A stretch of 64,000 bases of DNA, from assembly GCF_057098645.1 (NCBI RefSeq), contig NZ_CM169472.1; one strand, given 5' to 3'. The notes beneath the pieces were generated by a model. It ran no database searches and was not told where the DNA came from. It saw only the letters and a program-made list of their open reading frames with translations. The position numbers and the translations under genes were made by a program. Positions 14,017 to 28,638 of this stretch are shown here, in pieces (the stretch's first letter is position 1; each line of letters starts with the position of its first letter).

Positions 14017-16416
14017 ATGAAGCTAACCGATGCGGATAATGCCGCCGATGGCATTTTTTTCCCCGCCCTTGAGCAAAATATGATGGGTGCGGTGTTAATT
14101 AACGAAAATGATGAAGTGATGTTTTTCAACCCCGCCGCAGAGAAGCTCTGGGGGTACAAACGTGAAGAAGTCATTGGCAATAACATTGATATGCTGATTC
14201 CGCGGGATTTGCGTCCTGCGCATCCTGAATACATTCGTCACAACCGTGAAGGCGGTAAAGCGCGCGTCGAGGGGATGAGTCGGGAGCTGCAGCTGGAGAA
14301 AAAAGACGGCAGTAAAATCTGGACCCGTTTTGCGCTATCGAAAGTGAGCGCCGAGGGGAAAGTTTATTACCTGGCGCTGGTACGGGATGCCAGCGTAGAA
14401 ATGGCGCAAAAAGAACAGACCAGACAATTGATTATTGCCGTTGACCATCTCGACCGACCGGTGATTGTCCTCGATCCGGAACGCCATATTGTGCAGTGCA
14501 ATCGCGTATTTACCGAAATGTTTGGTTACTGCATTAGCGAAGCCAGCGGTATGCAGCCCGATACACTCCTGAACATTCCTGAATTCCCTGCCGATAACCG
14601 CATTCGTTTACAACAGTTGCTATGGAAAACCGCCCGCGATCAGGACGAATTTCTGCTGTTGACGCGCACCGGTGAAAAAATCTGGATTAAAGCCTCTATC
14701 AGCCCGGTTTATGACGTGCTCGCGCATCTGCAGAACCTGGTAATGACTTTCTCGGATATCACCGAAGAACGGCAAATCCGCCAGCTTGAAGGCAATATTC
14801 TCGCCGCCATGTGCAGCAGTCCGCCATTTCATGAAATGGGGGAAATCATTTGTCGTAATATCGAATCTGTTCTCAACGAATCGCATGTTTCGCTGTTCGC
14901 ACTGCGCAACGGGATGCCGATACACTGGGCGTCATCTTCGCACGGTGCAGAAGTTCAAAATGCGCAAAGCTGGTCAGCGACCATTCGTCAGCGTGATGGC
15001 GCGCCTGCGGGGATCCTGCAAATTAAAACCTCCTCAGGAGCAGAAACCAGCGCCTTTATCGAACGCGTGGCAGATATCAGCCAGCATATGGCCGCGCTGG
15101 CGCTGGAACAGGAAAAAAGCCGTCAGCATATTGAACAACTCATCCAATTTGATCCGATGACCGGTCTGCCAAATCGCAATAACCTGCACAATTACCTCGA
15201 TGACCTGGTCGACAAAGCCGTCTCTCCGGTGGTGTATCTCATCGGTGTTGACCATATTCAGGATGTGATTGATAGCCTTGGCTATGCGTGGGCCGATCAG
15301 GCATTGCTGGAAGTGGTCAATCGCTTTCGTGAAAAACTCAAACCGGATCAGTATCTCTGTCGTATCGAAGGTACGCAGTTTGTCCTCGTGAGCCTGGAAA
15401 ACGACGTCAGTAACATTACCCAAATCGCCGATGAGCTACGGAATGTGGTCAGCAAGCCGATAATGATTGACGATAAACCCTTCCCGCTTACCTTGAGTAT
15501 TGGCATCAGCTACGACGTGGGTAAAAACCGCGATTACCTGCTCTCCACTGCTCACAATGCAATGGATTATATTCGCAAGAATGGCGGTAACGGCTGGCAG
15601 TTCTTCAGCCCGGCGATGAACGAAATGGTAAAAGAGCGTTTGGTTTTAGGCGCAGCGCTGAAAGAGGCGATTAGCAATAACCAACTGAAACTGGTTTACC
15701 AGCCGCAAATCTTCGCAGAAACGGGTGAACTCTACGGCATCGAAGCCCTTGCTCGCTGGCACGATCCCCAGCATGGTCATGTGCCCCCTTCACGGTTTAT
15801 TCCTCTCGCAGAAGAGATTGGTGAAATCGAAAATATTGGGCGCTGGGTCATCGCGGAAGCTTGCCGTCAGTTAGCAGAATGGCGTAGCCAGAATATTCAT
15901 ATCCCGGCGTTATCCGTGAACTTGTCAGCGCTGCACTTTCGCAGTAATCAGCTGCCTAATCAGGTATCTGATGCAATGCACGCCTGGGGTATTGACGGCC
16001 ACCAGCTGACGGTAGAAATCACGGAAAGCATGATGATGGAACACGATACCGAAATCTTTAAGCGCATTCAGATCCTGCGTGATATGGGCGTGGGTTTATC
16101 GGTAGATGATTTTGGCACGGGCTTTTCCGGATTATCCCGCTTAGTCAGTCTTCCGGTAACGGAAATCAAAATTGACAAAAGTTTTGTCGATCGTTGTCTG
16201 ACGGAAAAACGCATCCTTGCCTTACTTGAAGCCATTACCAGCATTGGGCAAAGCCTCAATTTAACCGTCGTGGCGGAAGGCGTCGAAACCAAAGAGCAAT
16301 TTGAGATGCTACGCAAGATCCACTGTCGCGTTATTCAGGGATATTTCTTTTCCCGCCCCCTACCCGCCGAAGAAATTCCAGGCTGGATGAGCAGCGTGTT
16401 ACCGCTGAAAATCTGA
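14017..16416 (+). CDS. dosP: Heme-PAS c-di-GMP phosphodiesterase DosP
   Basis: 799 aa from MKLTDADNAADGIFFPALEQ; PAS-GGDEF-EAL architecture; starts immediately after dosC. Confidence 0.9.
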   Translation: MKLTDADNAADGIFFPALEQNMMGAVLINENDEVMFFNPAAEKLWGYKREEVIGNNIDMLIPRDLRPAHPEYIRHNREGGKARVEGMSRELQLEKKDGSKIWTRFALSKVSAEGKVYYLALVRDASVEMAQKEQTRQLIIAVDHLDRPVIVLDPERHIVQCNRVFTEMFGYCISEASGMQPDTLLNIPEFPADNRIRLQQLLWKTARDQDEFLLLTRTGEKIWIKASISPVYDVLAHLQNLVMTFSDITEERQIRQLEGNILAAMCSSPPFHEMGEIICRNIESVLNESHVSLFALRNGMPIHWASSSHGAEVQNAQSWSATIRQRDGAPAGILQIKTSSGAETSAFIERVADISQHMAALALEQEKSRQHIEQLIQFDPMTGLPNRNNLHNYLDDLVDKAVSPVVYLIGVDHIQDVIDSLGYAWADQALLEVVNRFREKLKPDQYLCRIEGTQFVLVSLENDVSNITQIADELRNVVSKPIMIDDKPFPLTLSIGISYDVGKNRDYLLSTAHNAMDYIRKNGGNGWQFFSPAMNEMVKERLVLGAALKEAISNNQLKLVYQPQIFAETGELYGIEALARWHDPQHGHVPPSRFIPLAEEIGEIENIGRWVIAEACRQLAEWRSQNIHIPALSVNLSALHFRSNQLPNQVSDAMHAWGIDGHQLTVEITESMMMEHDTEIFKRIQILRDMGVGLSVDDFGTGFSGLSRLVSLPVTEIKIDKSFVDRCLTEKRILALLEAITSIGQSLNLTVVAEGVETKEQFEMLRKIHCRVIQGYFFSRPLPAEEIPGWMSSVLPLKI

Positions 16417-16427
16417 CAAATTCCTCT

Positions 16428-16450
16428 CGCCCGCACTCGCGGGTTTTCAT
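16428..16450 (+). terminator. Rho-independent terminator after dosP
   Basis: CGCCCGC-ACTC-GCGGG followed by TTTTCATTT. Confidence 0.5.
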
Positions 16451-16613
16451 TTAACGTGACACTGTCACTTAAATACTGTGATTTCAGCTACGATTCCGGG
16501 AGATTCCTTCCTTAACTTCCCCTCTTGCACCAAAACTGCACTACGCTGCACAAATGTTGATCAAAAGTTAAAAAATATAACTTTCAGCCAGCATTCTGGC
16601 GCTTATCCCGGCA

Positions 16614-16630
16614 TGGCATGAGATCTGCAT
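16614..16630 (+). promoter_or_regulatory. Candidate sigma-54 promoter for the ddp operon (TGGCAT-N5-CTGCAT)
   Basis: GG and GC elements with correct -24/-12 spacing, about 44 nt upstream of the ddpX start. Confidence 0.35.
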
Positions 16631-16673
16631 AAGTGGAAAGCGCAGCAATTTTTGTCTTATACAGGAACCGTTT

Positions 16674-17255
16674 ATGTCGGATACCACCGAACTGGTTGAT
16701 TTAGCCGTGACCTTCCCTGATCTGGAGATCGAATTGAAATACGCCTGCGCTGATAACATCACAGGTAAAGCTATTTATCAGCAAGCGCGTTGTCTGCTAC
16801 ACAAGGATGCGATTACCGCGCTGGCGAAAAGTATCAGTATCGCCCAGCTATCAGGCTTACAACTGGTGATTTACGATGCGTATCGCCCACAACAAGCACA
16901 GGCGATGTTGTGGCAAGCCTGCCCAGACCCGCAATATGTTGTTGATGTGACGGTCGGTTCTAATCACAGCCGTGGCACGGCGATCGACCTGACGCTTCGT
17001 GATGAGCACGGGAACATCCTCGATATGGGCGCAGGATTCGATGAAATGCACGAACGTTCCCATGCTTACCATCCTTCCGTCCCGCCCGCCGCTCAGCGCA
17101 ATCGGCTGTTGCTGAATGCGATTATGACTGGTGGCGGTTTTGTCGGTATCTCCAGCGAATGGTGGCACTTCGAATTACCCCAGGCAGCGAGTTACCCTCT
17201 GCTCGCTGATCAATTCTCTTGTTTTATATCCCCTGGCACACAGCACGTCAGTTAA
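16674..17255 (+). CDS. ddpX: D-Ala-D-Ala dipeptidase (VanX homologue)
   Basis: 193 aa; VanX-type zinc-ligand motif SNHSRGTAIDLTL. Confidence 0.9.
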   Translation: MSDTTELVDLAVTFPDLEIELKYACADNITGKAIYQQARCLLHKDAITALAKSISIAQLSGLQLVIYDAYRPQQAQAMLWQACPDPQYVVDVTVGSNHSRGTAIDLTLRDEHGNILDMGAGFDEMHERSHAYHPSVPPAAQRNRLLLNAIMTGGGFVGISSEWWHFELPQAASYPLLADQFSCFISPGTQHVS

Positions 17256-17268
17256 TCAGGAAACTGTC

Positions 17269-18819
17269 ATGAAGAGATCGATATCGTTTCGTCCCACATT
17301 GCTCGCGCTCGTCCTTGCCACAACTTTCCCGGTTGCGCACGCCGCCGTACCGAAAGATATGCTGGTGATTGGTAAGGCCGCCGATCCACAAACCCTCGAC
17401 CCGGCGGTAACAATAGATAATAACGACTGGACGGTGACCTACCCGTCTTATCAGCGACTGGTTCAGTACAAAACGGACGGTGATAAAGGCTCAACCGACG
17501 TTGAAGGCGATCTGGCAAGTAGCTGGAAAGCGTCTGACGATCAAAAAGAGTGGACGTTCACCCTGAAAGATAATGCTAAATTTGCCGATGGCACACCTGT
17601 CACTGCCGAAGCAGTAAAACTTTCTTTTGAGCGGCTACTAAAAATCGGCCAGGGGCCAGCAGAAGCATTTCCCAAAGATTTAAAGATTGATGCTCCCGAC
17701 GAACATACGGTGAAGTTTACCCTTAGCCAGCCATTTGCACCGTTCCTCTACACGCTGGCGAATGACGGTGCATCCATTATCAATCCGGCGGTCTTAAAGG
17801 AACATGCAGCGGATGATGCTCGCGGCTTCCTCGCGCAAAATACCGCCGGTTCCGGACCATTTATGCTGAAAAGCTGGCAAAAAGGTCAGCAATTAGTTCT
17901 GGTGCCAAATCCGCATTACTCCGGCAATAAACCGAACTTTAAGCGAGTATCGGTAAAAATTATCGGTGAAAGTGCCTCCCGTCGCCTGCAGCTCTCCCGT
18001 GGCGACATTGACATTGCCGATGCGCTGCCGGTGGATCAACTCAACGCCCTGAAGCAGGAAAATAAAATCAATGTGGCAGAGTATCCGTCACTGCGCGTCA
18101 CCTATCTGTATCTGAATAACAGCAAAGCGCCACTTAATCAGGCTGATCTGCGTCGGGCCATTTCCTGGTCTACCGATTATCAGGGCATGGTTAACGGCAT
18201 TCTGAGTGGTAACGGAAAACAGATGCGCGGCCCGATTCCGGAAGGCATGTGGGGCTACGATGCGACGGCAATGCAATACAACCATGACGAAACGAAAGCC
18301 AAAGCTGAATGGGATAAAGTGACGAGCAAACCCACCATCCTGACGTTTCTCTACTCCGATAACGATCCGAACTGGGAGCCTATTGCTCTGGCGACACAAT
18401 CCAGTCTCAACAAGCTGGGCATCAATGTGAAGCTGGAAAAGCTGGCGAACGCCACCATGCGCGACAGAGTGGGTAAAGGTGATTACGACATTGCGATTGG
18501 CAACTGGAGTCCGGATTTTGCCGACCCGTATATGTTTATGAATTACTGGTTTGAGTCCGACAAAAAAGGTCTGCCGGGTAACCGCTCGTTCTATGAAAAC
18601 AGTGAGGTCGATAAGTTACTGCGCAATGCGCTCGCGACCACCGACCAGACGCAGCGTACCCGAGACTACCAGCAGGCACAGAAAATCGTCATTGATGACG
18701 CTGCTTATGTGTACCTGTTCCAGAAAAACTACCAACTGGCGATGAACAAAGAGGTGAAAGGCTTTGTGTTCAATCCCATGCTGGAACAGGTCTTCAATAT
18801 CAATACCATGAGTAAATAA
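17269..18819 (+). CDS. ddpA: D-Ala-D-Ala ABC transporter periplasmic binding protein
   Basis: 516 aa from MKRSISFRPTLLAL with signal peptide; family 5 solute-binding protein. Confidence 0.9.
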   Translation: MKRSISFRPTLLALVLATTFPVAHAAVPKDMLVIGKAADPQTLDPAVTIDNNDWTVTYPSYQRLVQYKTDGDKGSTDVEGDLASSWKASDDQKEWTFTLKDNAKFADGTPVTAEAVKLSFERLLKIGQGPAEAFPKDLKIDAPDEHTVKFTLSQPFAPFLYTLANDGASIINPAVLKEHAADDARGFLAQNTAGSGPFMLKSWQKGQQLVLVPNPHYSGNKPNFKRVSVKIIGESASRRLQLSRGDIDIADALPVDQLNALKQENKINVAEYPSLRVTYLYLNNSKAPLNQADLRRAISWSTDYQGMVNGILSGNGKQMRGPIPEGMWGYDATAMQYNHDETKAKAEWDKVTSKPTILTFLYSDNDPNWEPIALATQSSLNKLGINVKLEKLANATMRDRVGKGDYDIAIGNWSPDFADPYMFMNYWFESDKKGLPGNRSFYENSEVDKLLRNALATTDQTQRTRDYQQAQKIVIDDAAYVYLFQKNYQLAMNKEVKGFVFNPMLEQVFNINTMSK

Positions 18820-18820
18820 C

Positions 18821-19843
18821 GTGACCTTCTGGAGTATTTTACGCCAACGCTGCTGGGGGCTGGTGCTCGTGGTGGCGGGCGTCTGCGTGATTACGTTTAT
18901 TATCTCGCATCTGATCCCTGGTGATCCGGCGCGGTTACTGGCGGGTGACCGCGCCAGCGATGCTATCGTGGAAAATATTCGCCAGCAACTGGGGCTGGAC
19001 CAGCCACTGTACGTACAGTTTTACCGCTACGTCAGCGATCTGTTTCATGGTGACCTGGGGACATCCATTCGTACCGGGCGTCCGGTGCTGGAAGAGTTGC
19101 GCATATTCTTCCCGGCGACGCTGGAACTGGCATTTTGCGCGCTGCTACTGGCACTCCTGATTGGCATCCCGCTGGGCATACTCTCTGCAGTCTGGCGAAA
19201 TCGCTGGCTGGATCATCTGGTGCGAATAATGGCCATTACCGGAATCTCCACACCTGCGTTCTGGCTTGGGCTGGGCGTCATTGTGCTGTTTTATGGTCAT
19301 CTGCAAATTCTTCCCGGCGGCGGAAGGCTTGATGACTGGCTGGATCCACCAACGCACGTTACCGGCTTTTATCTGCTCGATGCGTTGCTTGAAGGCAACG
19401 GTGAAGTCTTCTTCAATGCGTTGCAACATCTCATCTTACCGGCATTAACGCTGGCGTTTGTTCACCTGGGGATTGTCGCCCGCCAGATCCGCTCAGCGAT
19501 GCTGGAACAATTGAGTGAAGACTACATTCGTACCGCCCGGGCCAGCGGCTTGCCCGGCTGGTATATCGTTCTATGTTATGCGCTACCCAATGCGTTGATC
19601 CCATCGATTACCGTATTAGGTCTGGCGCTGGGCGATTTGTTGTATGGCGCAGTGCTCACCGGAACCGTTTTTGCCTGGCCCGGAATGGGGGCATGGGTAG
19701 TGACATCAATACAGGCGCTCGACTTCCCGGCAGTGATGGGCTTTGCCGTCGTGGTTTCATTTGCTTATGTGCTGGTCAACCTGGTGGTGGATTTGCTCTA
19801 TTTGTGGATTGATCCGCGTATCGGACGTGGAGGTGATGAATGA
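18821..19843 (+). CDS. ddpB: Dipeptide ABC transporter permease
   Basis: 340 aa membrane protein. Confidence 0.9.
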   Translation: MTFWSILRQRCWGLVLVVAGVCVITFIISHLIPGDPARLLAGDRASDAIVENIRQQLGLDQPLYVQFYRYVSDLFHGDLGTSIRTGRPVLEELRIFFPATLELAFCALLLALLIGIPLGILSAVWRNRWLDHLVRIMAITGISTPAFWLGLGVIVLFYGHLQILPGGGRLDDWLDPPTHVTGFYLLDALLEGNGEVFFNALQHLILPALTLAFVHLGIVARQIRSAMLEQLSEDYIRTARASGLPGWYIVLCYALPNALIPSITVLGLALGDLLYGAVLTGTVFAWPGMGAWVVTSIQALDFPAVMGFAVVVSFAYVLVNLVVDLLYLWIDPRIGRGGDE

Positions 19844-20736
19844 TGCTAAGCGAGGAAACGTCCGCCGTACGCCCAGCAAAACAAACGCGATTTAACGGTG
19901 CAAAACTGGTATGGATGCTGAAAGGCAGTCCGCTCACCGTGACCGGCGCAGTCATCATTGTATTAATGCTATTGATGATGATTTTTTCACCGTGGCTTGC
20001 GACGCATGATCCCAACGCCATTGATTTAACCGCCCGCCTTTTGCCGCCTTCTGCGGCGCACTGGTTTGGCACCGATGAAGTGGGACGCGATCTGTTCAGC
20101 CGCGTACTGGTCGGCAGTCAGCAATCAATTCTCGCCGGATTAGTCGTGGTTGCCATTGCGGGTATGATTGGTTCGCTACTCGGATGTCTATCCGGTGTGC
20201 TTGGCGGACGCGCAGACGCCATCATCATGCGCATCATGGACATTATGCTGTCGATTCCTTCGTTGGTACTGACAATGGCACTGGCTGCCGCTCTCGGGCC
20301 GAGTTTATTTAACGCCATGCTGGCGATTGCTATTGTGCGAATTCCCTTTTATGTGCGCCTGGCGCGGGGGCAAGCATTAGTTGTACGCCAGTATACCTAT
20401 GTTCAGGCGGCGAAAACCTTTGGCGCGTCTCGTTGGCATCTGATCAGCTGGCATATTTTACGTAACTCCCTGCCGCCGCTGATCGTGCAGGCATCGCTGG
20501 ATATCGGTAGCGCGATTTTAATGGCCGCCACGTTGGGATTTATTGGCCTGGGTGCTCAACAACCGAGTGCTGAATGGGGCGCGATGGTAGCAAATGGTCG
20601 CAACTATGTACTCGATCAGTGGTGGTATTGCGCATTTCCGGGGGCAGCGATTTTGCTTACCGCCGTCGGGTTTAATCTCTTTGGTGATGGTATTCGCGAT
20701 CTGCTTGACCCGAAAGCAGGAGGAAAGCAGTCATGA
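19840..20736 (+). CDS. ddpC: Dipeptide ABC transporter permease
   Basis: 298 aa membrane protein, 4-nt overlap with ddpB. Confidence 0.9.
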   Translation: MMLSEETSAVRPAKQTRFNGAKLVWMLKGSPLTVTGAVIIVLMLLMMIFSPWLATHDPNAIDLTARLLPPSAAHWFGTDEVGRDLFSRVLVGSQQSILAGLVVVAIAGMIGSLLGCLSGVLGGRADAIIMRIMDIMLSIPSLVLTMALAAALGPSLFNAMLAIAIVRIPFYVRLARGQALVVRQYTYVQAAKTFGASRWHLISWHILRNSLPPLIVQASLDIGSAILMAATLGFIGLGAQQPSAEWGAMVANGRNYVLDQWWYCAFPGAAILLTAVGFNLFGDGIRDLLDPKAGGKQS

Positions 20737-21719
20737 CCCAACCCGTTCTGGACATTCAACAACTGCATTTGAGTTTCCCCGGTTTTAACGGTGATGTTCA
20801 CGCGCTCAACAATGTGTCCTTGCAGATTAACCGCGGTGAAATTGTCGGTCTGGTGGGAGAATCCGGCTCAGGTAAATCAGTCACCGCAATGCTGATTATG
20901 CGTCTGCTACCGACGGGCAGTTATTGCGTACATCGGGGGCAGATTTCCCTGCTGGGAGAAGATGTTCTTAACGCTCGGGAAAAACAGCTTCGTCAGTGGC
21001 GCGGCGCACGAGTGGCGATGATCTTTCAGGAACCGATGACCGCCCTCAATCCGACACGTCGAATAGGTCTTCAGATGATGGACGTAATCCGACATCATCA
21101 ACCAATAAGTCGTCGGGAAGCCAGAGCTAAAGCGATTGCCCTGCTGGAAGAGATGCAAATCCCGGATGCCGTGGAAGTTATGTCGCGCTATCCGTTTGAG
21201 CTTTCAGGTGGTATGCGCCAGCGGGTTATGATTGCGCTGGCATTTTCCTGCGAGCCGCAATTGATTATTGCCGACGAACCGACTACGGCGCTGGACGTCA
21301 CGGTACAGTTGCAGGTACTGCGTTTGCTTAAACATAAAGCTCGCGCCAGTGGAACTGCGGTACTGTTCATCAGCCATGATATGGCCGTGGTGTCGCAACT
21401 GTGCGATAGCGTTTACGTGATGTATGCCGGAAGCGTAATTGAAAGCGGCGTGACGGCAGACGTTATCCATCATCCCCGGCATCCGTATACCATTGGTTTG
21501 CTGCAATGCGCACCAGAACATGGAGTACCACGCCAGCCATTACCCGCCATTCCAGGGACGGTACCAAACCTCACCCATTTGCCTGACGGCTGCGCTTTTC
21601 GCGATCGTTGCTATGCGGCAGGTGCACAGTGTGAAAACGTCCCGGCGCTAACAGCGTGTGGTGACAACAACCAGCGCTGCGCCTGTTGGTATCCGCAGCA
21701 GGAGGTCATAAGTGTCTGA
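20733..21719 (+). CDS. ddpD: Dipeptide ABC transporter ATP-binding protein
   Basis: 328 aa; Walker A GESGSGKS, signature LSGGMRQR. Confidence 0.9.
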   Translation: MTQPVLDIQQLHLSFPGFNGDVHALNNVSLQINRGEIVGLVGESGSGKSVTAMLIMRLLPTGSYCVHRGQISLLGEDVLNAREKQLRQWRGARVAMIFQEPMTALNPTRRIGLQMMDVIRHHQPISRREARAKAIALLEEMQIPDAVEVMSRYPFELSGGMRQRVMIALAFSCEPQLIIADEPTTALDVTVQLQVLRLLKHKARASGTAVLFISHDMAVVSQLCDSVYVMYAGSVIESGVTADVIHHPRHPYTIGLLQCAPEHGVPRQPLPAIPGTVPNLTHLPDGCAFRDRCYAAGAQCENVPALTACGDNNQRCACWYPQQEVISV

Positions 21720-22638
21720 CACGTTATTAACGTTACGCGACGTCCATATCAATTTCCCGGCCCGTAAAAACTGGCTTGGTAAAACTACGGAACATGTTCA
21801 TGCCATTAATGGTATTGATTTACAGATCCGCCGTGGTGAAACCTTAGGGATCGTCGGCGAGTCAGGCTGCGGCAAAAGCACCCTCGCACAGCTTTTAATG
21901 GGTATGCTGCAACCGAGCCACGGGCAGTACATCCGTTCTGGCTCACAACGCATTATGCAGATGGTGTTTCAGGACCCGCTCTCTTCGCTCAATCCGCGCT
22001 TACCGGTGTGGCGCATCATCACAGAACCGCTCTGGATAGCTAAGCGTAGTAGTGAACAACAGCGGCGAGCGTTGGCAGAGGAGCTGGCTGTGCAGGTGGG
22101 TATTCGTCCGGAGTATCTCGACCGCCTGCCTCATGCGTTCTCCGGCGGGCAGCGGCAACGCATCGCCATTGCCAGAGCACTCTCTTCGCAGCCTGACGTG
22201 ATTGTGCTTGATGAGCCAACCTCTGCGCTGGATATCTCCGTGCAGGCACAGATCCTCAATTTACTGGTAACGCTACAGGAAAATCACGGGCTGACTTATG
22301 TGCTGATTTCACACAATGTCTCGGTGATACGTCATATGAGCGATCGGGTGGCGGTGATGTATCTCGGGCAGATTGTGGAATTAGGGGAAGCGCAACAGGT
22401 GCTAACGGCTCCGGCACATCCATACACCCGATTATTGCTGGATTCCCTCCCCGCCATTGATAAACCACTGGAGGAAGAATGGGCATTACGTAAAACGGAT
22501 CTGCCGGGAAACCGCACGTTGCCGCAAGGCTGTTTTTTCCGCGAACGTTGCCCCCTTGCAACCAGCGGATGCGAAGTCCGGCAATCATTAGCAATAAGGG
22601 AGGACGGACGTGAGATCCGTTGCTGGCGGGCGCTGTAG
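21712..22638 (+). CDS. ddpF: Dipeptide ABC transporter ATP-binding protein
   Basis: 308 aa; Walker A GESGCGKST, signature FSGGQRQR. Confidence 0.9.
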   Translation: MSDTLLTLRDVHINFPARKNWLGKTTEHVHAINGIDLQIRRGETLGIVGESGCGKSTLAQLLMGMLQPSHGQYIRSGSQRIMQMVFQDPLSSLNPRLPVWRIITEPLWIAKRSSEQQRRALAEELAVQVGIRPEYLDRLPHAFSGGQRQRIAIARALSSQPDVIVLDEPTSALDISVQAQILNLLVTLQENHGLTYVLISHNVSVIRHMSDRVAVMYLGQIVELGEAQQVLTAPAHPYTRLLLDSLPAIDKPLEEEWALRKTDLPGNRTLPQGCFFRERCPLATSGCEVRQSLAIREDGREIRCWRAL

Positions 22639-22674: not shown

Positions 22675-23565
22675 TTATGCGTCATAGGTTTTTTTTAACG
22701 TTTCCATCAACGCCTGCGCCGCAGTAGAAAGCTTATGGTGTGACGAACGCAGTACGCCTACTCGTCGCTCAATCACTGGATTATCCAGTTCCAGACACAC
22801 TGCGCCCAGTTCGCTCATCTGCCTGCGGCACAGCGCAGGCACAGCGCTTCCTCCCAAACCGTTTGCCACCAGCCGCCCAACCGTAACCAGTTGATGGCTT
22901 TCCAGCGCCACTTCCAGTTGCGTTCCACTTTGTGCCAACTGCTCCTCCAGCATCAACCTGACGGCTGACGGTCGCTGGAGGGTGATAAAATCGAGCGTCA
23001 GCAAATCCCGCCAACTCACGCGTTGCCGATTTGCCAGTCGTGAATCGGCTGGAACAATAGCGACAAACCGATCCACGCCCAGTGGGGTAAAATGCACATG
23101 GCCGCAATAGTCAGGTTCAAAGGCAATACCCATCTCCACACGCCCTTCGCTCACCATTTCGATCACCTGCTCATTCACCACATCGTGCACGGTGACATTA
23201 ATCCCTGAATAACAATCGCGGAAGGTTTTCAGCACCGGAGGCAGAACGTTGGCTGCAAATGACGGCATCGCTGCCACCGAGACTTTTCCCCGCCTGAGCG
23301 TGAATCGCTGACGCATGGCCTCCTCAGTGTTATCCCAGTCAGCCAGCAAAGGCCGTGCCATCGACAATAGCGTTTCCCCCTCCTGGGTTAATGTCACTTT
23401 TCGCGTAGTACGCAGCAGTAAAGCGCCCCCTAAGGCATCTTCCAGTCCTTTAATGGTAAGACTTAGCGCAGGCTGCGACATATTCAGCCGTTCACTGGCA
23501 TGGGCAAAGTTCAGAGTGTGAGCTACCGCTAAAAACGCGCGTAACTGTTTGATGCTCATTTTCAT
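22675..23565 (-). CDS. LysR-family transcriptional regulator, divergent from the catabolic operon
   Basis: 296 aa; N-terminal HTH (IKQLRAFLAVAHTLNFAHASERLNMSQPALS). Confidence 0.85.
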   Translation of the reverse strand: MKMSIKQLRAFLAVAHTLNFAHASERLNMSQPALSLTIKGLEDALGGALLLRTTRKVTLTQEGETLLSMARPLLADWDNTEEAMRQRFTLRRGKVSVAAMPSFAANVLPPVLKTFRDCYSGINVTVHDVVNEQVIEMVSEGRVEMGIAFEPDYCGHVHFTPLGVDRFVAIVPADSRLANRQRVSWRDLLTLDFITLQRPSAVRLMLEEQLAQSGTQLEVALESHQLVTVGRLVANGLGGSAVPALCRRQMSELGAVCLELDNPVIERRVGVLRSSHHKLSTAAQALMETLKKTYDA

Positions 23566-23706
23566 CTGGCACTCCGTTAACCTACTGAATACATTTAATT
23601 AACATTATATTGATAAATAATACAAATGAATGAGTCACAAATTTAAAATTAACAAATCATTTTTTGCCCTTAATGATGTTGAAAAGGACAACTGGAGGGC
23701 AACTGT

Positions 23707-24414
23707 ATGGCTGGGTTGGATAAACGGGTCGCTACGTATCACGAGGCACTTGAAGGACTTACCAATGAGATGACGATTCTGGCAGGAGGTTTTGGCCTGT
23801 GCGGCATCCCGGAGAATCTGATTGCTGAAGTTCGCCACCGTGGAGTAACCGGATTAACGGTGGTTTCCAATAACTGTGGCGTAGATGGTTTTGGACTGGG
23901 TGTACTACTGGAAAGCCGACAGATCCGTAAAGTCGTCGCTTCTTATGTTGGCGAGAATGCTTTGTTTGAAAAACAGGTGCTTAACGGCGAACTGGAGGCG
24001 ATTCTCACACCACAAGGAACCCTGGCAGAACAACTGCGCGCAGGCGGCGCGGGTATCCCGGCGTTCTTTACTGCCACCGGTTACGGTACTCCCGTTGCCG
24101 AAGGGAAAGAAGTCCGCGAATTCAACGGTCGCCCGTACATCATGGAACAGGCTATCACCGGTGATTTTGCCCTGGTCAAAGGCTGGAAAGCCGACTGGTA
24201 CGGCAACGTGATTTATCGTCATACCGCGCAAAACTTCAACCCACTGATGGCGGCTGCCGGAAAAATCACCGTGGTGGAAGTGGAAGAAATAGTGCCACCT
24301 GGTGAACTTGATCCTGCCGCTATCCATACCCCGGGGATTTTTGTTAATCGCGTCATTCAGGGGCAATTTGAAAAACGCATTGAACAACGCACCCTTAGCC
24401 GCAAAGGAGCCTGA
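23707..24414 (+). CDS. 3-oxoacid (acetoacetate) CoA-transferase subunit A
   Basis: 235 aa AtoD/ScoA-like sequence. Confidence 0.85.
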
Positions 24415-24416
24415 CC

Positions 24417-25073
24417 ATGTTAACCCGTGAACAAATGGCGATGCGAGTCGCCCGCGAATTGCGCGATGGCTATTACGTCAATCTCGGCATTGGTATCCCG
24501 ACCCTGGTGGCAAACTACATTCCTGACGGGATGGATGTGATGTTGCAGTCAGAAAACGGTTTGCTGGGAATGGGCGCATTTCCTACGGAAGACGAACTGG
24601 ACGCCGACATGATTAATGCCGGTAAACAAACCGTTACCGCGCGGAAAGGCGCGGCAATTTTCGATTCGGCGCAATCATTCGCCATGATCCGTGGCGGTCA
24701 TGTGGATCTGACTGTACTTGGCGCATTTGAAGTGGATGTGAATGGCAACATTGCCTCATGGATGATCCCCGGCAAGATGGTTAAAGGCATGGGCGGTGCC
24801 ATGGATCTGGTTGCCGGTGCCGAGAATATTATTGTGGTAATGACCCACGCCTCCAAATCCGGCGAATCCAAACTGCTTCCTGACTGTACCCTTCCGTTGA
24901 CCGGCGCCGGATGCATCAAACGCGTCTTAACCGACCTTGCTCTGCTGGAAATTGCTGACGGAGCTTTCATTCTGCGCGAGCGCGCGCCGGGAATCAGCGT
25001 TGCGGAAATCATCGCCAAAACCGCCGGTAAGTTGTTTGTGCCGGAACATGTCCCGGAAATGCAATTCAACTGA
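24417..25073 (+). CDS. 3-oxoacid (acetoacetate) CoA-transferase subunit B
   Basis: 218 aa AtoA/ScoB-like; conserved SENG glutamate motif. Confidence 0.85.
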   Translation: MLTREQMAMRVARELRDGYYVNLGIGIPTLVANYIPDGMDVMLQSENGLLGMGAFPTEDELDADMINAGKQTVTARKGAAIFDSAQSFAMIRGGHVDLTVLGAFEVDVNGNIASWMIPGKMVKGMGGAMDLVAGAENIIVVMTHASKSGESKLLPDCTLPLTGAGCIKRVLTDLALLEIADGAFILRERAPGISVAEIIAKTAGKLFVPEHVPEMQFN

Positions 25074-25082
25074 GGAATCACC

Positions 25083-26288
25083 ATGCAGGACGTTGTTATT
25101 GTTGCCGCTACGCGCACACCGATTGGCTGTTTTCATGGCGCTCTCGCCCCACTTTCTGCGGTTGATCTCGGTGCTGCCACCATCCGTTCGTTGCTGGAGA
25201 AAACCGCACTTGCAGCAGAACAGATCGACGAAGTGATTTTTGGTCAGGTCCTGACCGCCGGAAGCGGACAAAACCCGGCACGACAATCGGCGCTCAAAGC
25301 CGGGTTAAGCCACAATACACCCGCCGTTACCATCAACCTGGTATGTGGTTCCGGTCTGAAAGCCGTACACCAGGCAGTGCAGGCGATCCGTTGCGGTGAT
25401 GCACAGATAATTATCGCAGGTGGCCAGGAAAGCATGAGCAACGCGCCCTATTTTATTGATGGCGCGCGGGCAGGTTTACGCCTCGGGCATACCAGCATGA
25501 AAGACAGCGTGGTTCATGACGGACTATGGGATGCTTTCAATGATTACCACATGGGCATTACTGCAGAAAACCTGGCGCAAAAATATGCCATCAGTCGCGA
25601 GCGACAGGACACATTCGCGCTACGTTCTCAGCAAAAAGCCGCTGCCGCAATGGAAGCCGGGCGCTTTGCAGACGAAATTACTCCGGTGAGCGTACCACAA
25701 GGTAAAAAACCACCACGCTGGGTAAATACCGACGAACAACCACGTTCCGGGACGCAACTGGAAAAACTAGCGCAACTGAAACCGGCCTTTCTTCCGGGGG
25801 CGGGAAGCGTCACCGCAGGAAATGCCTCTTCCATTAATGATGGTGCCGCCGCAGTCATGTTAATGCGCGCCAGCAAAGCTGCTGAACTGGGCCTCCCAGT
25901 GCTGGCTCGGGTGGCAGGTTATGCCGTTTCTGGCGTCGATCCTGCCTTTATGGGCATTGGTCCGGTCGCCGCTACCCGCGAATGTCTTAAGCGTTGCGGA
26001 TGGACGCTGGAAGATATTGATCTTATTGAAGCCAACGAGGCTTTCGCAGCGCAGGCGCTGGCCGTTGGCGACGAACTGAACTGGGATTGCGACAAAGTGA
26101 ATGTTAACGGCGGCGCAATCGCACTTGGGCATCCTATTGGCGCTTCCGGTTGCCGCATTCTGGTCACTCTCATTTATGAAATGGCGCGACGTAATGCGCA
26201 AAAAGGGCTGGCGACGCTGTGCGTCGGTGGCGGTCAGGGCGTGGCGCTGACACTGGAAAGAACCACAGAAGAACACCATGCAAACTGA
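25083..26288 (+). CDS. Acetyl-CoA C-acetyltransferase (thiolase II)
   Basis: 401 aa; typical thiolase motifs including C-terminal GGGQG. Confidence 0.9.
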
Positions 26289-27201
26289 ACAATTTGCGGT
26301 ACTGGGCGCCGGATTGATGGGCGTGGGGATTGCCACTCATTTCGCCCGCTTTGGTCATGATATCTGGCTGTACGATACCGAGCAGAGCCGGATTGCAGAA
26401 ATCCACGTAGTTGCAGGCGGAATTCTTGATGAGCTGATTAGCTGCGAACAGTTTACTGCCCCGGAAAAAGAGAATGTGCTTAAACGTCTGCACGGCACGA
26501 CTTCTCTTGCAGACATCGCCGACTCGCAACTACTGATTGAGGCGATCCCGGAGCGACTTGAACTAAAACACGCATTATATACCGAGCTTGAAACGCTTAT
26601 TTCTCCTGAGGCCATTGTCGCCAGCAATACCAGCGGTCTGCCGCCCGATGATCTGGCCGCGAAAATGCGCTACCCGCAACGACTGCTGATCGCCCATTTC
26701 TGGCATCCGCCGCACTTCATTCCACTTGTGGAGATTATCCCCGGCAGCGTTACCGAGCCAAAGCATTTGCACTGGCTGCAACACTTGCTTGTGTCACTGC
26801 AACTGGAAGCAGTGTTGCTGGATCGCGCTGCGCCAGGATTTGTCGGCAACCGTCTGCAATTTGCACTGTTGCGTGAAGCCCTGCATATCGTAAAAAGCGG
26901 CATCGCCAGTGCAGAAGTGGTGGATCAGGTGATGCGCGCCTCGCTTGGGCGACGTTATGCCATGGTCGGCCCGCTGGAGGCCGCCGACATGACCGGACTT
27001 TCGACGGTGCAGGATATTTGTCGCCATCTGCTCCCTGAACTAGCGACTGGCAGCGACATGATGTCATTAGTTGCCGAAAAAGTGGAACGTGGAGACATCG
27101 GCGTACGTAGCGGTCAGGGATTTTACTGCTGGGATGAATCGCGGAAGCAGTACATCCAGCAGAGTCGGGAACATCAACTTCGCTTCGCCCTTAAACCATA
27201 A
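26278..27201 (+). CDS. NAD-dependent 3-hydroxyacyl-CoA dehydrogenase family protein
   Basis: 307 aa; Rossmann motif [12 protein letters not shown] at N-terminus. Confidence 0.75.
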
Positions 27202-27246
27202 CTTCTCTCGCTGTACCCACTATAACAACGATATTGAGGAGTCCCG

Positions 27247-28638
27247 ATGAGTGTATTAATCGCCCTTGCCGCGCTTGGGCTGCTAATGCTGGCAGCCTAT
27301 CGCGGATACAGCGTTATCCTTTTTGCCCCCATCGCAGCATTAGGCGCTGTTCTTGTCACCGATCCGGGGGCCGTTGGCCCAGCATTTACCGGCCTGTTCA
27401 TGGAAAAAATGGTCGGCTTCGTGAAATTGTACTTCCCGGTGTTTCTGCTCGGGGCCGTGTTCGGAAAACTGATTGAACTTTCAGGATTTTCTCGTTCGAT
27501 TGTCGCTGCTGCAATCAACATTCTCGGCCGGCGGCATGCGATTCCGGTGATTGTGCTGGTATGTGCATTACTCACCTATGGCGGAGTGTCGCTGTTTGTG
27601 GTGGCATTTGCCGTTTATCCGTTCGCGGCTGAACTGTTCCGCCAGAGTAACATCCCAAAACGACTTATACCGGCAACGGTGGCCCTGGGGGCATTCTCTT
27701 TTACTATGGACGCTCTGCCCGGCACGCCACAAATTCAGAACATTATTCCTACCAGTTTCTTTGGCACCAACGCCTGGGCCGCGCCGTGGCTGGGGCTTAT
27801 TGGTTCACTGTTTATCATTGCCGTCGGGCTTATCTATCTGGAGCGGCAGCGTCGTAAAGCGCAGGCAAAAAATGAAGGTTACGGCACAGAGTTACTTAAT
27901 GAACCTGAAACACCAGATAACATCAATTTACCGAACCCACTCATTGCGATTTCACCATTGATTCTGGTGGGGCTGTTGAACTTGTTGTTTACCTGGTGGA
28001 TCCCTGTTTGGTACGGTGCGAGCCACCAACTGGAGTTGCCGGGACTTGCCGCCCCGATTACCACAGATGTCGCCAAAATCACCGCAATCTGGGCCGTCGA
28101 AGCTGCGCTCATTGCCGGAATTTTGCTGGTAGTGATTTTTGGATATCGCAATATTCATGGAAGACTGGCAGAAGGAAGCCGTACAGCGGTGGGCGGCGCA
28201 ATTCTGGCTGCGATGAACACCGCCTCAGAATATGGCTTCGGTGCGGTTATCGCCGCCCTACCCGGTTTTCTGGTGCTCTCAAAGGCGCTGGCCGCCATTC
28301 CTGATCCATTACTCAACGAAGCCATCAGCATCACCACACTTGCCGGAATTACCGGTTCAGCGTCCGGCGGGATGAGTATTGCTCTTGCGGCTATGTCCGA
28401 CACTTTTATTGCCGCTGCGCACGCTGCCAATATTCCACTGGAAGTTTTTCACCGCGTGGCATCTATGGCCAGTGGCGGCATGGATACATTGCCCCATAAC
28501 GGCGCTGTGATCACCCTGCTGGCAATTACTGGGCTGAGTCACCGTCAGGCTTACGGCGGCATCTTCGCAATTACGATCATTAAAAGTCTGGCCGTGCTGT
28601 TTATCATCGGCGTGTACTACACCACCGGCATTGTCTAA
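27247..28638 (+). CDS. Polytopic permease, GntP-like (candidate 3-hydroxybutyrate/acetoacetate transporter)
   Basis: 463 aa hydrophobic protein; substrate inferred from operon context only. Confidence 0.6.
   Translation: MSVLIALAALGLLMLAAYRGYSVILFAPIAALGAVLVTDPGAVGPAFTGLFMEKMVGFVKLYFPVFLLGAVFGKLIELSGFSRSIVAAAINILGRRHAIPVIVLVCALLTYGGVSLFVVAFAVYPFAAELFRQSNIPKRLIPATVALGAFSFTMDALPGTPQIQNIIPTSFFGTNAWAAPWLGLIGSLFIIAVGLIYLERQRRKAQAKNEGYGTELLNEPETPDNINLPNPLIAISPLILVGLLNLLFTWWIPVWYGASHQLELPGLAAPITTDVAKITAIWAVEAALIAGILLVVIFGYRNIHGRLAEGSRTAVGGAILAAMNTASEYGFGAVIAALPGFLVLSKALAAIPDPLLNEAISITTLAGITGSASGGMSIALAAMSDTFIAAAHAANIPLEVFHRVASMASGGMDTLPHNGAVITLLAITGLSHRQAYGGIFAITIIKSLAVLFIIGVYYTTGIV

What the first reader, a model, noticed from the sequence alone, without database searches (positions are those of the whole stretch)
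16614..16630. Sigma-54-type promoter candidate upstream of ddpX
TGGCAT-GAGAT-CTGCAT matches the -24 GG and -12 GC elements with correct spacing, about 44 nt upstream of the ddpX start. This would fit nitrogen-limitation control of the D-Ala-D-Ala dipeptide uptake operon.
Basis: partly seen in the sequence, partly recalled or inferred. Interest (0 to 1): 0.3.

Follow-up and report, generated by a model that had tools for sequence, protein, structure and literature searches.

The report
Known sigma-54 promoter of ddpX operon
The motif is real and is the already documented nitrogen-starvation (sigma-54/NtrC) promoter of the E. coli D-Ala-D-Ala dipeptidase and uptake operon, so the finding is correct but ordinary; the only new point is that related bacteria place the same promoter in front of an extra regulator gene that Escherichia has lost.

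Summary
TGGCATGAGATCTGCAT lies at 16614-16630 (+). GG (16615-16) and GC (16627-28) are separated by 10 nt, and the motif ends 44 nt before the ddpX ATG (16674). The window is E. coli O145:H28 DNA.

The promoter core is identical to K-12. The 17-mer ATGGCATGAGATCTGCA is site OS16 of the published sigma-54 ChIP-seq map (PMC4591121). Published NtrC ChIP-seq, gSELEX, gel shifts and RT-qPCR (ddpX 104.5-fold up on nitrogen depletion) also cover this promoter (PMC4066584, PMC8743547).

My own tests agree:
- The site scores 15.9 bits, the median of 41 ChIP-proven E. coli sites.
- The core is invariant in divergent Escherichia.
- An equivalent motif is present in 64 of 64 orthologous loci from other Enterobacterales genera (background 0.0011 per 200 nt).

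In those genera the motif sits about 57 nt upstream of an RpiR-family regulator gene that immediately precedes ddpX. Escherichia lacks that gene and its likely operator. An approximately 0.85-kb deletion probably fused the ancestral promoter and its upstream activator block (16526-16571) directly to ddpX.

Two things remain unresolved: the reported RpoS dependence of ddpXA, and the lack of a transcription-start map in the literature I could search.

The parts
16613..16629 (+). Sigma-54 promoter core, the 17-mer ATGGCATGAGATCTGCA. The -24 GG is at 16615-16616 and the -12 GC at 16627-16628. The finding's own coordinates, 16614-16630, are the same element shifted by one base.
   Evidence: Sequence. 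PWM score 15.9 bits, the median of 41 ChIP-seq-proven sites. Identical to site OS16 of PMC4591121. The core is invariant in divergent Escherichia.
16640..16640 (+). Predicted transcription start (G), 12 nt downstream of the C of the -12 GC. This gives a 34-nt leader.
   Evidence: Inferred from sigma-54 promoter geometry. It matches the 'Distance 34' listed for ddpX in Table 1 of PMC4591121. It has not been mapped experimentally in any paper I could search.
16526..16571 (+). Upstream activator block TGCACCAAAACTGCACTACGCTGCACAAATGTTGATCAAAAGTTAA. It holds three TGCAC repeats 10-11 bp apart. NtrC-like boxes lie at 16526-16542, 16537-16553 and 16547-16563. The block sits 42-87 nt upstream of the promoter core.
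   Evidence: The block is conserved with the region upstream of the orthologous promoter in Citrobacter, Enterobacter, Franconibacter, Huaxiibacter and Mixta (blastn E 2e-17). The best matches to TGCACCAnnnTGGTGCA carry 4-5 mismatches (shuffle P about 0.03). NtrC binding to this region is known only from ChIP-seq and gel shift at low resolution.
16644..16673 (+). The 3' part of the leader, with the Shine-Dalgarno AGGA at 16663-16666. It is probably a remnant of the 3' end of a lost RpiR-family gene plus the ancestral rpiR-ddpX junction.
   Evidence: CAGCAATTTTTGTC...ACAGGAACCGT in E. coli corresponds to CAACAATTTGGTCAATTCGAACAATAAACAGGAACCGT in Citrobacter. BLAST supports the homology only from 16658 onward; the rest is judged by eye.
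16674..22638 (+). The ddpXABCDF operon driven by the promoter: ddpX 16674-17255, ddpA 17269-18819, ddpB 18821-19843, ddpC 19840-20736, ddpD 20733-21719, ddpF 21712-22638.
   Evidence: RefSeq annotation of the 100%-identical strain RM9872. Pfam assigns Peptidase_M15 to DdpX (1.9e-78) and SBP_bac_5 to DdpA.
16429..16444 (+). Terminator-like hairpin after dosP (GCCCGC-ACUC-GCGGGU followed by UUUCAUUU). It bounds the promoter region on the upstream side.
   Evidence: Found. Folding gives -10.9 kcal/mol, z = -3.35. Its efficiency is unknown, which matters for possible read-through from dosCP.

Best explanation
This is ddpXp, the enhancer-dependent sigma-54 (RpoN) promoter of the ddpXABCDF operon. 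RNA polymerase carrying sigma-54 binds the -24 GG / -12 GC element at 16613-16629 as a closed complex. Under nitrogen limitation, phosphorylated NtrC bound to the conserved upstream block (16526-16571) contacts the polymerase by DNA looping and uses ATP to open the promoter. Transcription then starts near 16640. The cell makes the D-Ala-D-Ala dipeptidase and its ABC importer, which scavenge D-alanine as a nitrogen source.

What is shown: the motif, its geometry and its conservation (tested here); in vivo and in vitro binding of E-sigma54 and NtrC, and induction on nitrogen depletion (literature, on the identical K-12 sequence).

What is inferred: the exact NtrC boxes, the looping step and the start site.

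The promoter is ancestral in Enterobacterales, where it drives rpiR-like-ddpXABC. In Escherichia, a deletion of the rpiR-like gene placed it directly in front of ddpX.
For: Motif and spacing.

Score: 15.9 bits, the median of 41 ChIP-proven sites.

Identity to K-12: no difference in the motif and 2 of 257 intergenic differences.

Literature on that sequence:
- Sigma-54 ChIP-seq site OS16 with the same 17-mer.
- NtrC ChIP-seq peak at ddpXABCDF.
- gSELEX peak, binary and ternary gel-shift complexes with NtrC and RpoN holoenzyme, and ddpX mRNA up 104.5-fold on nitrogen depletion.

Conservation:
- TGGCA and TGC are invariant in divergent Escherichia. The two variants seen affect a non-critical base or move towards consensus.
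- 64 of 64 orthologous loci with an rpiR-like-ddpX arrangement carry a hit of at least 12 bits (median 16.2) 53-102 nt upstream of the first gene. Background is 0.0011 per 200 nt, and flanking DNA is essentially randomised.
- NtrC-like boxes with 2-3 mismatches lie 93-125 nt upstream in several genera.

No sigma-70-type promoter is called in 16300-16800. No Rfam family matches there.
Against: - The score alone is not significant at window scale.
- The E. coli NtrC boxes are weak, with 4-5 mismatches to the 14 specified consensus positions. No footprint defines them.
- No experimental start-site map was found.
- ddpXA is also among the 100 most RpoS-dependent stationary-phase genes in O157:H7. 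A sigma-54 promoter does not explain that.
- Anchoring the orthologue alignment on the best PWM hit makes invariance of the core partly circular.
Confidence: 0.93

Rival explanations
1. The motif is a functional sigma-54 site, but a second, RpoS-dependent route supplies much of ddpX expression in stationary phase. That route could be an unrecognised sigma-S promoter in the intergenic region, or read-through from the upstream dosCP operon across the modest dosP terminator. On this view the sigma-54 promoter is only one of two inputs.
For: - ddpXA shows 39- and 31-fold RpoS dependence in stationary-phase EDL933.
- The dosP terminator-like hairpin is short: 6 bp, -10.9 kcal/mol, with an interrupted U tract.
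- From my own knowledge, not verified here: dosCP (yddV-dos) is sigma-S dependent, and Lessard et al. 1998 reported rpoS-dependent ddpX expression.
Against: - No sigma-70/sigma-S-like -35/-10 pair is found in 16300-16800.
- RpoS dependence in a microarray can be indirect.
- This route complements the sigma-54 promoter rather than replacing it, and it does not explain the motif itself.
Confidence: 0.35
2. The site binds E-sigma54 but is transcriptionally silent or acts mainly as a roadblock (a 'repressive promoter' in the sense of Shimada et al. 2021). Induction of ddpX on nitrogen depletion would then be indirect.
For: Many E. coli sigma-54 sites are non-productive or intragenic. Shimada et al. 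describe repressive RpoN sites.
Against: - ddpX mRNA rises 104.5-fold on nitrogen depletion.
- NtrC binds the region in vivo and in vitro.
- The site is intergenic, correctly oriented, and 34-45 nt from the start codon.
- The same arrangement is conserved in front of the operon in 64 of 64 loci of other genera.
Confidence: 0.03
3. The motif is a chance match with no function.
For: About 0.6 hits of this quality are expected per random 64-kb window on both strands. An equally good hit lies inside a LysR gene at 23345-23361.
Against: Published sigma-54 ChIP-seq and gSELEX signals exist on the identical sequence. The site is conserved across Escherichia and at the orthologous position in other genera.
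Confidence: 0.01

Closest known systems
ddpXp of E. coli K-12 (site OS16 in Bonocora et al. 2015; listed as an RpoN/NtrC promoter in EcoCyc and RegulonDB)
   Same: The 17-mer is identical, as are its position relative to ddpX, the upstream block and the operon. Only 2 of 257 intergenic bases differ (16585 C/A; 16634 T/C).
   Different: Nothing functional is evident. The T at 16634 (about -6) is a minority allele: only 30 of 4274 genomes are identical over 16600-16649.
Other NtrC-dependent sigma-54 promoters of E. coli (glnAp2, glnHp2, astCp, nac, argT, yeaG)
   Same: They share the -24 GG / -12 GC core with the same spacing, a short leader, NtrC ChIP-seq peaks and induction by nitrogen limitation. 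The first 11 bases of the ddpX core are identical to the yeaG site ATGGCATGAGAGTTGCT, and the core is close to the argT site ATGGCATAAGACCTGCA.
   Different: glnAp2 has two near-consensus palindromic NtrC sites. The ddpX upstream block has one perfect half-site (TGCACCA) plus direct TGCAC repeats, and no box with fewer than 4 mismatches. ddpX has T rather than C at the sixth position (TGGCAT) and C rather than T before TGCA.
Sigma-54 promoter in front of rpiR-like-ddpXABC in Citrobacter, Enterobacter, Serratia, Pantoea, Raoultella, Brenneria and others (found here; I know of no description)
   Same: The promoter core is orthologous (for example ATGGCACGCGTCCTGCA) and the upstream TGCACCAAAA...GTTAA block is shared. 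The downstream ddpXABC genes are the same.
   Different: In those genera the promoter is followed by a TTGTTA-N6-TAACA palindrome and a 285-aa RpiR-family (HTH_6) regulator gene before ddpX. Escherichia lacks both.

Membership tests
Sigma-54 (RpoN) dependent promoter | A -24 GG and -12 GC dinucleotide with exactly 10 nt between them, in a TGGCAC-N5-TTGCW context | tested here: met
   TGGCATGAGATCTGCA at 16614-16629. The PWM score of 15.9 bits is the median of 41 ChIP-proven sites.
Sigma-54 (RpoN) dependent promoter | Intergenic location, oriented towards a downstream gene at a short distance | tested here: met
   The site is on the + strand in the 257-bp dosP-ddpX spacer, 44 nt before the ddpX ATG.
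Sigma-54 (RpoN) dependent promoter | Occupied by E-sigma54 in vivo or in vitro | not testable with these tools
   Literature on the identical K-12 sequence: ChIP-seq site OS16, and gSELEX plus gel shift.
Sigma-54 (RpoN) dependent promoter | Transcription start about 12 nt downstream of the GC element, lost in an rpoN mutant | not testable with these tools
   The predicted start is 16640. No mapped start was found. RT-qPCR in rpoN and ntrC mutants was done by Shimada et al., but values for ddpX are only in their figure.
Sigma-54 (RpoN) dependent promoter | Conservation of the element at orthologous loci | tested here: met
   The core is invariant in Escherichia. 64 of 64 loci in other genera have a hit of at least 12 bits in front of the operon, against a background of 0.0011 per 200 nt.
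NtrC (Ntr) regulon promoter | NtrC binding sites (TGCACCAnnnTGGTGCA) roughly 60-150 bp upstream of the promoter | tested here: inconclusive
   The best boxes have 4-5 mismatches (16547-16563, 16526-16542), shuffle P about 0.03. However, the 46-bp block is conserved across genera, and orthologues in other genera have boxes with 2-3 mismatches.
NtrC (Ntr) regulon promoter | NtrC occupancy, and induction by nitrogen limitation that depends on NtrC | not testable with these tools
   Literature: NtrC ChIP-seq peak, NtrC gel shift, and 104.5-fold induction on nitrogen depletion.

The most novel reading that the evidence does not exclude
The E. coli ddpX promoter is a truncated version of an ancestral, doubly controlled unit. 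In most Enterobacterales, an NtrC/sigma-54 promoter carries a TTGTTA-N6-TAACA operator over its start site. It drives an RpiR-family regulator gene followed by ddpXABCDF, which probably adds substrate-specific repression to nitrogen control. In the Escherichia lineage, and apparently independently in an Enterobacterales metagenome-assembled genome (MAG, L041), a deletion of about 0.85 kb removed the operator and the regulator. That deletion fused the promoter to ddpX and left the operon under nitrogen control alone. If so, E. coli is an atypical model for ddp regulation, and there is an uncharacterised regulator of D-Ala-D-Ala (or D,D-dipeptide) use.
Probability: 0.6. Interest if true: 0.3.

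Novelty: already known. Interest (0 to 1): 0.12.

Why it matters
For the finding itself, little is at stake. It re-derives from raw sequence a promoter that is already in EcoCyc and RegulonDB and is supported by ChIP-seq, gSELEX and expression data. It is a useful positive control for the first-stage reader.

The comparative result adds modest value. It shows the promoter is ancient and under strong selection across Enterobacterales. It also shows that E. coli has lost an RpiR-family regulator and a start-site palindrome that accompany the promoter elsewhere. This points to a second, unstudied layer of control of D-Ala-D-Ala scavenging in Citrobacter, Enterobacter, Serratia, Pantoea and related genera.

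Tried and rejected
- **Window-scale significance.** Neither the degenerate pattern nor the PWM score is significant on its own, so I did not use the score as proof.
- **Sigma-70/sigma-S promoter in 16300-16800.** The consensus scan found none. By eye, AATACT near 16472 and TATAAC near 16576 lack properly spaced -35 elements, so I did not pursue them.
- **Known RNA family in the region.** None was found.
- **Original papers.** Zimmer et al. 2000 and Reitzer & Schneider 2001 are not held in the library. I cite them only through the papers that cite them.
- **Published start site.** Searches for 'ddpXp' and related terms found nothing relevant.
- **Published link between ddpX and an RpiR regulator.** None was found.
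- **A 14-nt match of window 16579-16592 to the 5' coding part of the rpiR-like gene.** With E = 0.48, I rejected it as chance.
- **IHF site.** GATCAAAAGTTAA misses the WATCAANNNNTTR consensus by register, so I make no IHF claim.
- **First scan of the 400 nt directly upstream of ddpX orthologues.** It seemed to show no conservation of the promoter. This was misleading, because an extra gene lies between the promoter and ddpX in other genera.

Full report
**Observation**

The window read shows TGGCATGAGATCTGCAT at 16614-16630 on the + strand. GG is at 16615-16616 and GC at 16627-16628, with 10 nt between them. The motif ends 44 nt before the ATG of a 193-aa ORF at 16674-17255. That ORF is a Peptidase_M15 D-Ala-D-Ala dipeptidase (Pfam 1.9e-78).

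The window is 100% identical over this stretch to E. coli O145:H28 strains such as RM9872. The annotation there reads dosC, dosP, ddpX, ddpA, ddpB, ddpC, ddpD, ddpF, all on the + strand.

**Is it more than chance?**

The score alone is not. TGGCAYN6TGCW occurs twice in the window against 0.93 expected.

I built a position weight matrix from the 41 other intergenic sigma-54 ChIP-seq sites in Table 1 of Bonocora et al. 2015, leaving ddpX out. The 17-mer ATGGCATGAGATCTGCA (16613-16629) scores 15.9 bits, exactly the median of the proven sites. However, random 64-kb sequences contain 0.62 hits of that quality on average. The case for function therefore rests on location, conservation and experiment.

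**What is known**

The identical 17-mer is site OS16 in the genome-wide sigma-54 ChIP-seq map of E. coli K-12. It is assigned to ddpX (b1488) with a 34-nt distance to the gene, and it is flagged as previously predicted in EcoCyc (PMC4591121).

- NtrC ChIP-seq under nitrogen starvation has a peak at ddpXABCDF (PMC4066584).
- Shimada et al. 2021 (PMC8743547) recovered the site by genomic SELEX.
- The same authors showed gel shifts with NtrC alone, with RpoN holoenzyme alone, and a ternary complex. Their probe primers map to window 16342-16750.
- They measured a 104.5-fold rise of ddpX mRNA on nitrogen depletion, which they attribute to RpoN plus NtrC. They cite Zimmer et al. 2000 for the original assignment to the Ntr regulon.

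The dosP-ddpX spacer in the window differs from K-12 at only two positions, 16585 and 16634, both outside the motif. So this is ddpXp, a known promoter.

**Independent comparative test**

About 4274 of 5426 complete E. coli genomes carry the promoter segment. Divergent Escherichia, namely a cryptic-clade strain and rare E. coli variants, keep TGGCA and TGC invariant. The only changes inside the 17-mer are A to G at the non-critical first base, and C to T, which makes TCTGCA into TTTGCA and so moves closer to consensus.

A scan of one genome per species for DdpX relatives returned 80 loci from Enterobacterales. The ddpX-ddpA-ddpB-ddpC order is conserved.

The 400 nt directly upstream of ddpX at first seemed to lack the motif outside Escherichia. 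The reason is that a 285-aa gene with an RpiR-family HTH_6 domain sits there on the same strand, ending 12 nt before ddpX. Upstream of that gene, 64 of 64 loci have a sigma-54 hit of at least 12 bits (median 16.2). The hit lies 53-102 nt (median 57) before the start codon. The background is 1 hit in 181,804 nt of neighbouring coding DNA, or 0.0011 per 200 nt.

In an alignment anchored on the motif, the 25 nt upstream carry almost no information (0.26 bit per position). That argues for selection on the element rather than recent common descent. Invariance of the core itself is partly circular, because the anchor was the best PWM hit.

**Upstream activator region**

A 46-bp block at 16526-16571, TGCACCAAAACTGCACTACGCTGCACAAATGTTGATCAAAAGTTAA, is shared almost base for base with the region upstream of the orthologous promoter in Citrobacter, Enterobacter, Lelliottia, Franconibacter, Huaxiibacter and Mixta (E 2e-17).

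The block contains one perfect NtrC half-site (TGCACCA) and three TGCAC repeats spaced 10-11 bp apart. Full 17-bp boxes match TGCACCAnnnTGGTGCA with 4-5 mismatches, so they are weak (shuffle P about 0.03). Raoultella, Pantoea, Serratia, Lonsdalea and others have boxes with 2-3 mismatches 93-125 nt upstream.

I take this block as the NtrC enhancer. That is an inference: the published ChIP-seq and gel-shift data do not resolve it.

**Mechanism**

E-sigma54 sits on 16613-16629 as a closed complex. NtrC-P bound to 16526-16571 loops to it and drives open-complex formation. Transcription starts near G16640 and gives a 34-nt leader with AGGA at 16663-16666.

The binding and the induction are shown in the literature. 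The start site, the exact NtrC boxes and the looping step are inferred from the family's established mechanism.

**Evolutionary anatomy (beyond the finding)**

In genomes that carry the rpiR-like gene, the -12 element is followed at once by the palindrome TTGTTA-N6-TAACA. It is exact in 52 of 64 loci, and a second TGACAG...TAACA element follows. This is a plausible operator overlapping the start site.

E. coli has neither the palindrome nor the gene. Its leader retains ACAGGAACCGT, the ancestral rpiR-ddpX junction, and CAGCAATTTTTGTC, which resembles the last codons of the rpiR-like gene, CAACAATTTGGTCAA.

The simplest reading is a deletion of about 0.85 kb in the Escherichia lineage that fused the ancestral promoter to ddpX. 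An Enterobacterales metagenome-assembled genome (MAG, L041) shows a similar fusion. No paper in the library links ddpX with an RpiR regulator.

**Loose ends**

ddpXA is among the 100 most RpoS-dependent stationary-phase genes in O157:H7. No sigma-70/sigma-S-type promoter is detected in the spacer. The terminator-like hairpin after dosP is modest (-10.9 kcal/mol). Read-through from dosCP or an indirect effect is therefore possible, and this remains unresolved.

No Rfam family matches the region. No experimental start-site map was found.

**Verdict**

The feature is already known, so interest is low. The comparative finding, an ancestral promoter plus loss of an RpiR-family regulator in Escherichia, is the only new element and is of modest interest.

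Noticed in passing
L006-L083 (e.g. L017 2061-2988; L007 2046-2986); compare window 16613-16673: Outside Escherichia, a 285-aa RpiR-family (HTH_6) regulator gene lies between the sigma-54 promoter and ddpX. A TTGTTA-N6-TAACA palindrome directly follows the -12 element and is exact in 52 of 64 loci. E. coli lacks both, and its leader looks like the remnant of a deletion of about 0.85 kb.
   Followed up: yes
window 16496-22638; L003 4001-4620: The whole ddpXABCDF operon, together with its promoter, is absent from roughly 1150 of 5426 complete E. coli genomes. In those genomes dosP is followed directly by osmC, as in strain CEA212U. The operon therefore behaves as accessory DNA within the species.
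   Followed up: partly
window 23345-23361 (- strand): A second sigma-54-like 17-mer, ATGGCACGGCCTTTGCT, scores 16.6 bits, higher than the ddpX site. It lies in sense orientation inside a LysR-family regulator gene (22675-23565, - strand). From memory that gene is not at this position in K-12 (not checked here), and this 17-mer is not among the sites listed in Bonocora et al.'s main text. It may be an intragenic sigma-54 site of the kind Bonocora et al. describe, or a chance match.
   Followed up: no
window 22675-28000: After ddpF, this O145 strain carries a gene cluster on the opposite side of a divergent spacer from the LysR regulator. The cluster encodes CoA-transferase A and B subunits, an acetyl-CoA C-acetyltransferase, a 3-hydroxyacyl-CoA dehydrogenase and a GntP permease. 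From memory, ddpF abuts osmC in K-12 (not checked here), which would make the cluster an accessory insertion here.
   Followed up: no
window 16451-16473: A near-perfect palindrome, TTAACGTGACA-C-TGTCACTTAA, lies just after the dosP terminator-like hairpin. It is present in divergent Escherichia (L004, L005) but not in Citrobacter or Enterobacter. Whether a protein binds it is unknown.
   Followed up: partly
window 16477-16500: TGTGAT...ACGA is conserved with Citrobacter (AATGTGATCG..CGACGAA) and Enterobacter (AATGTGAAC...TGACGTA), about 45 nt upstream of the NtrC-like block. It resembles a CRP half-site and could be a further regulatory input.
   Followed up: no
window 16587-16601: A perfect 5-bp inverted repeat, GCCAG-CATT-CTGGC, lies immediately upstream of the -24 element. 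It is conserved within Escherichia only.
   Followed up: no
window 16634: The T at about -6 of the promoter is a minority allele; K-12 and most strains have C. Only 30 of 4274 genomes are identical to the window over 16600-16649. It lies in the region melted in the open complex, and its effect is unknown.
   Followed up: partly
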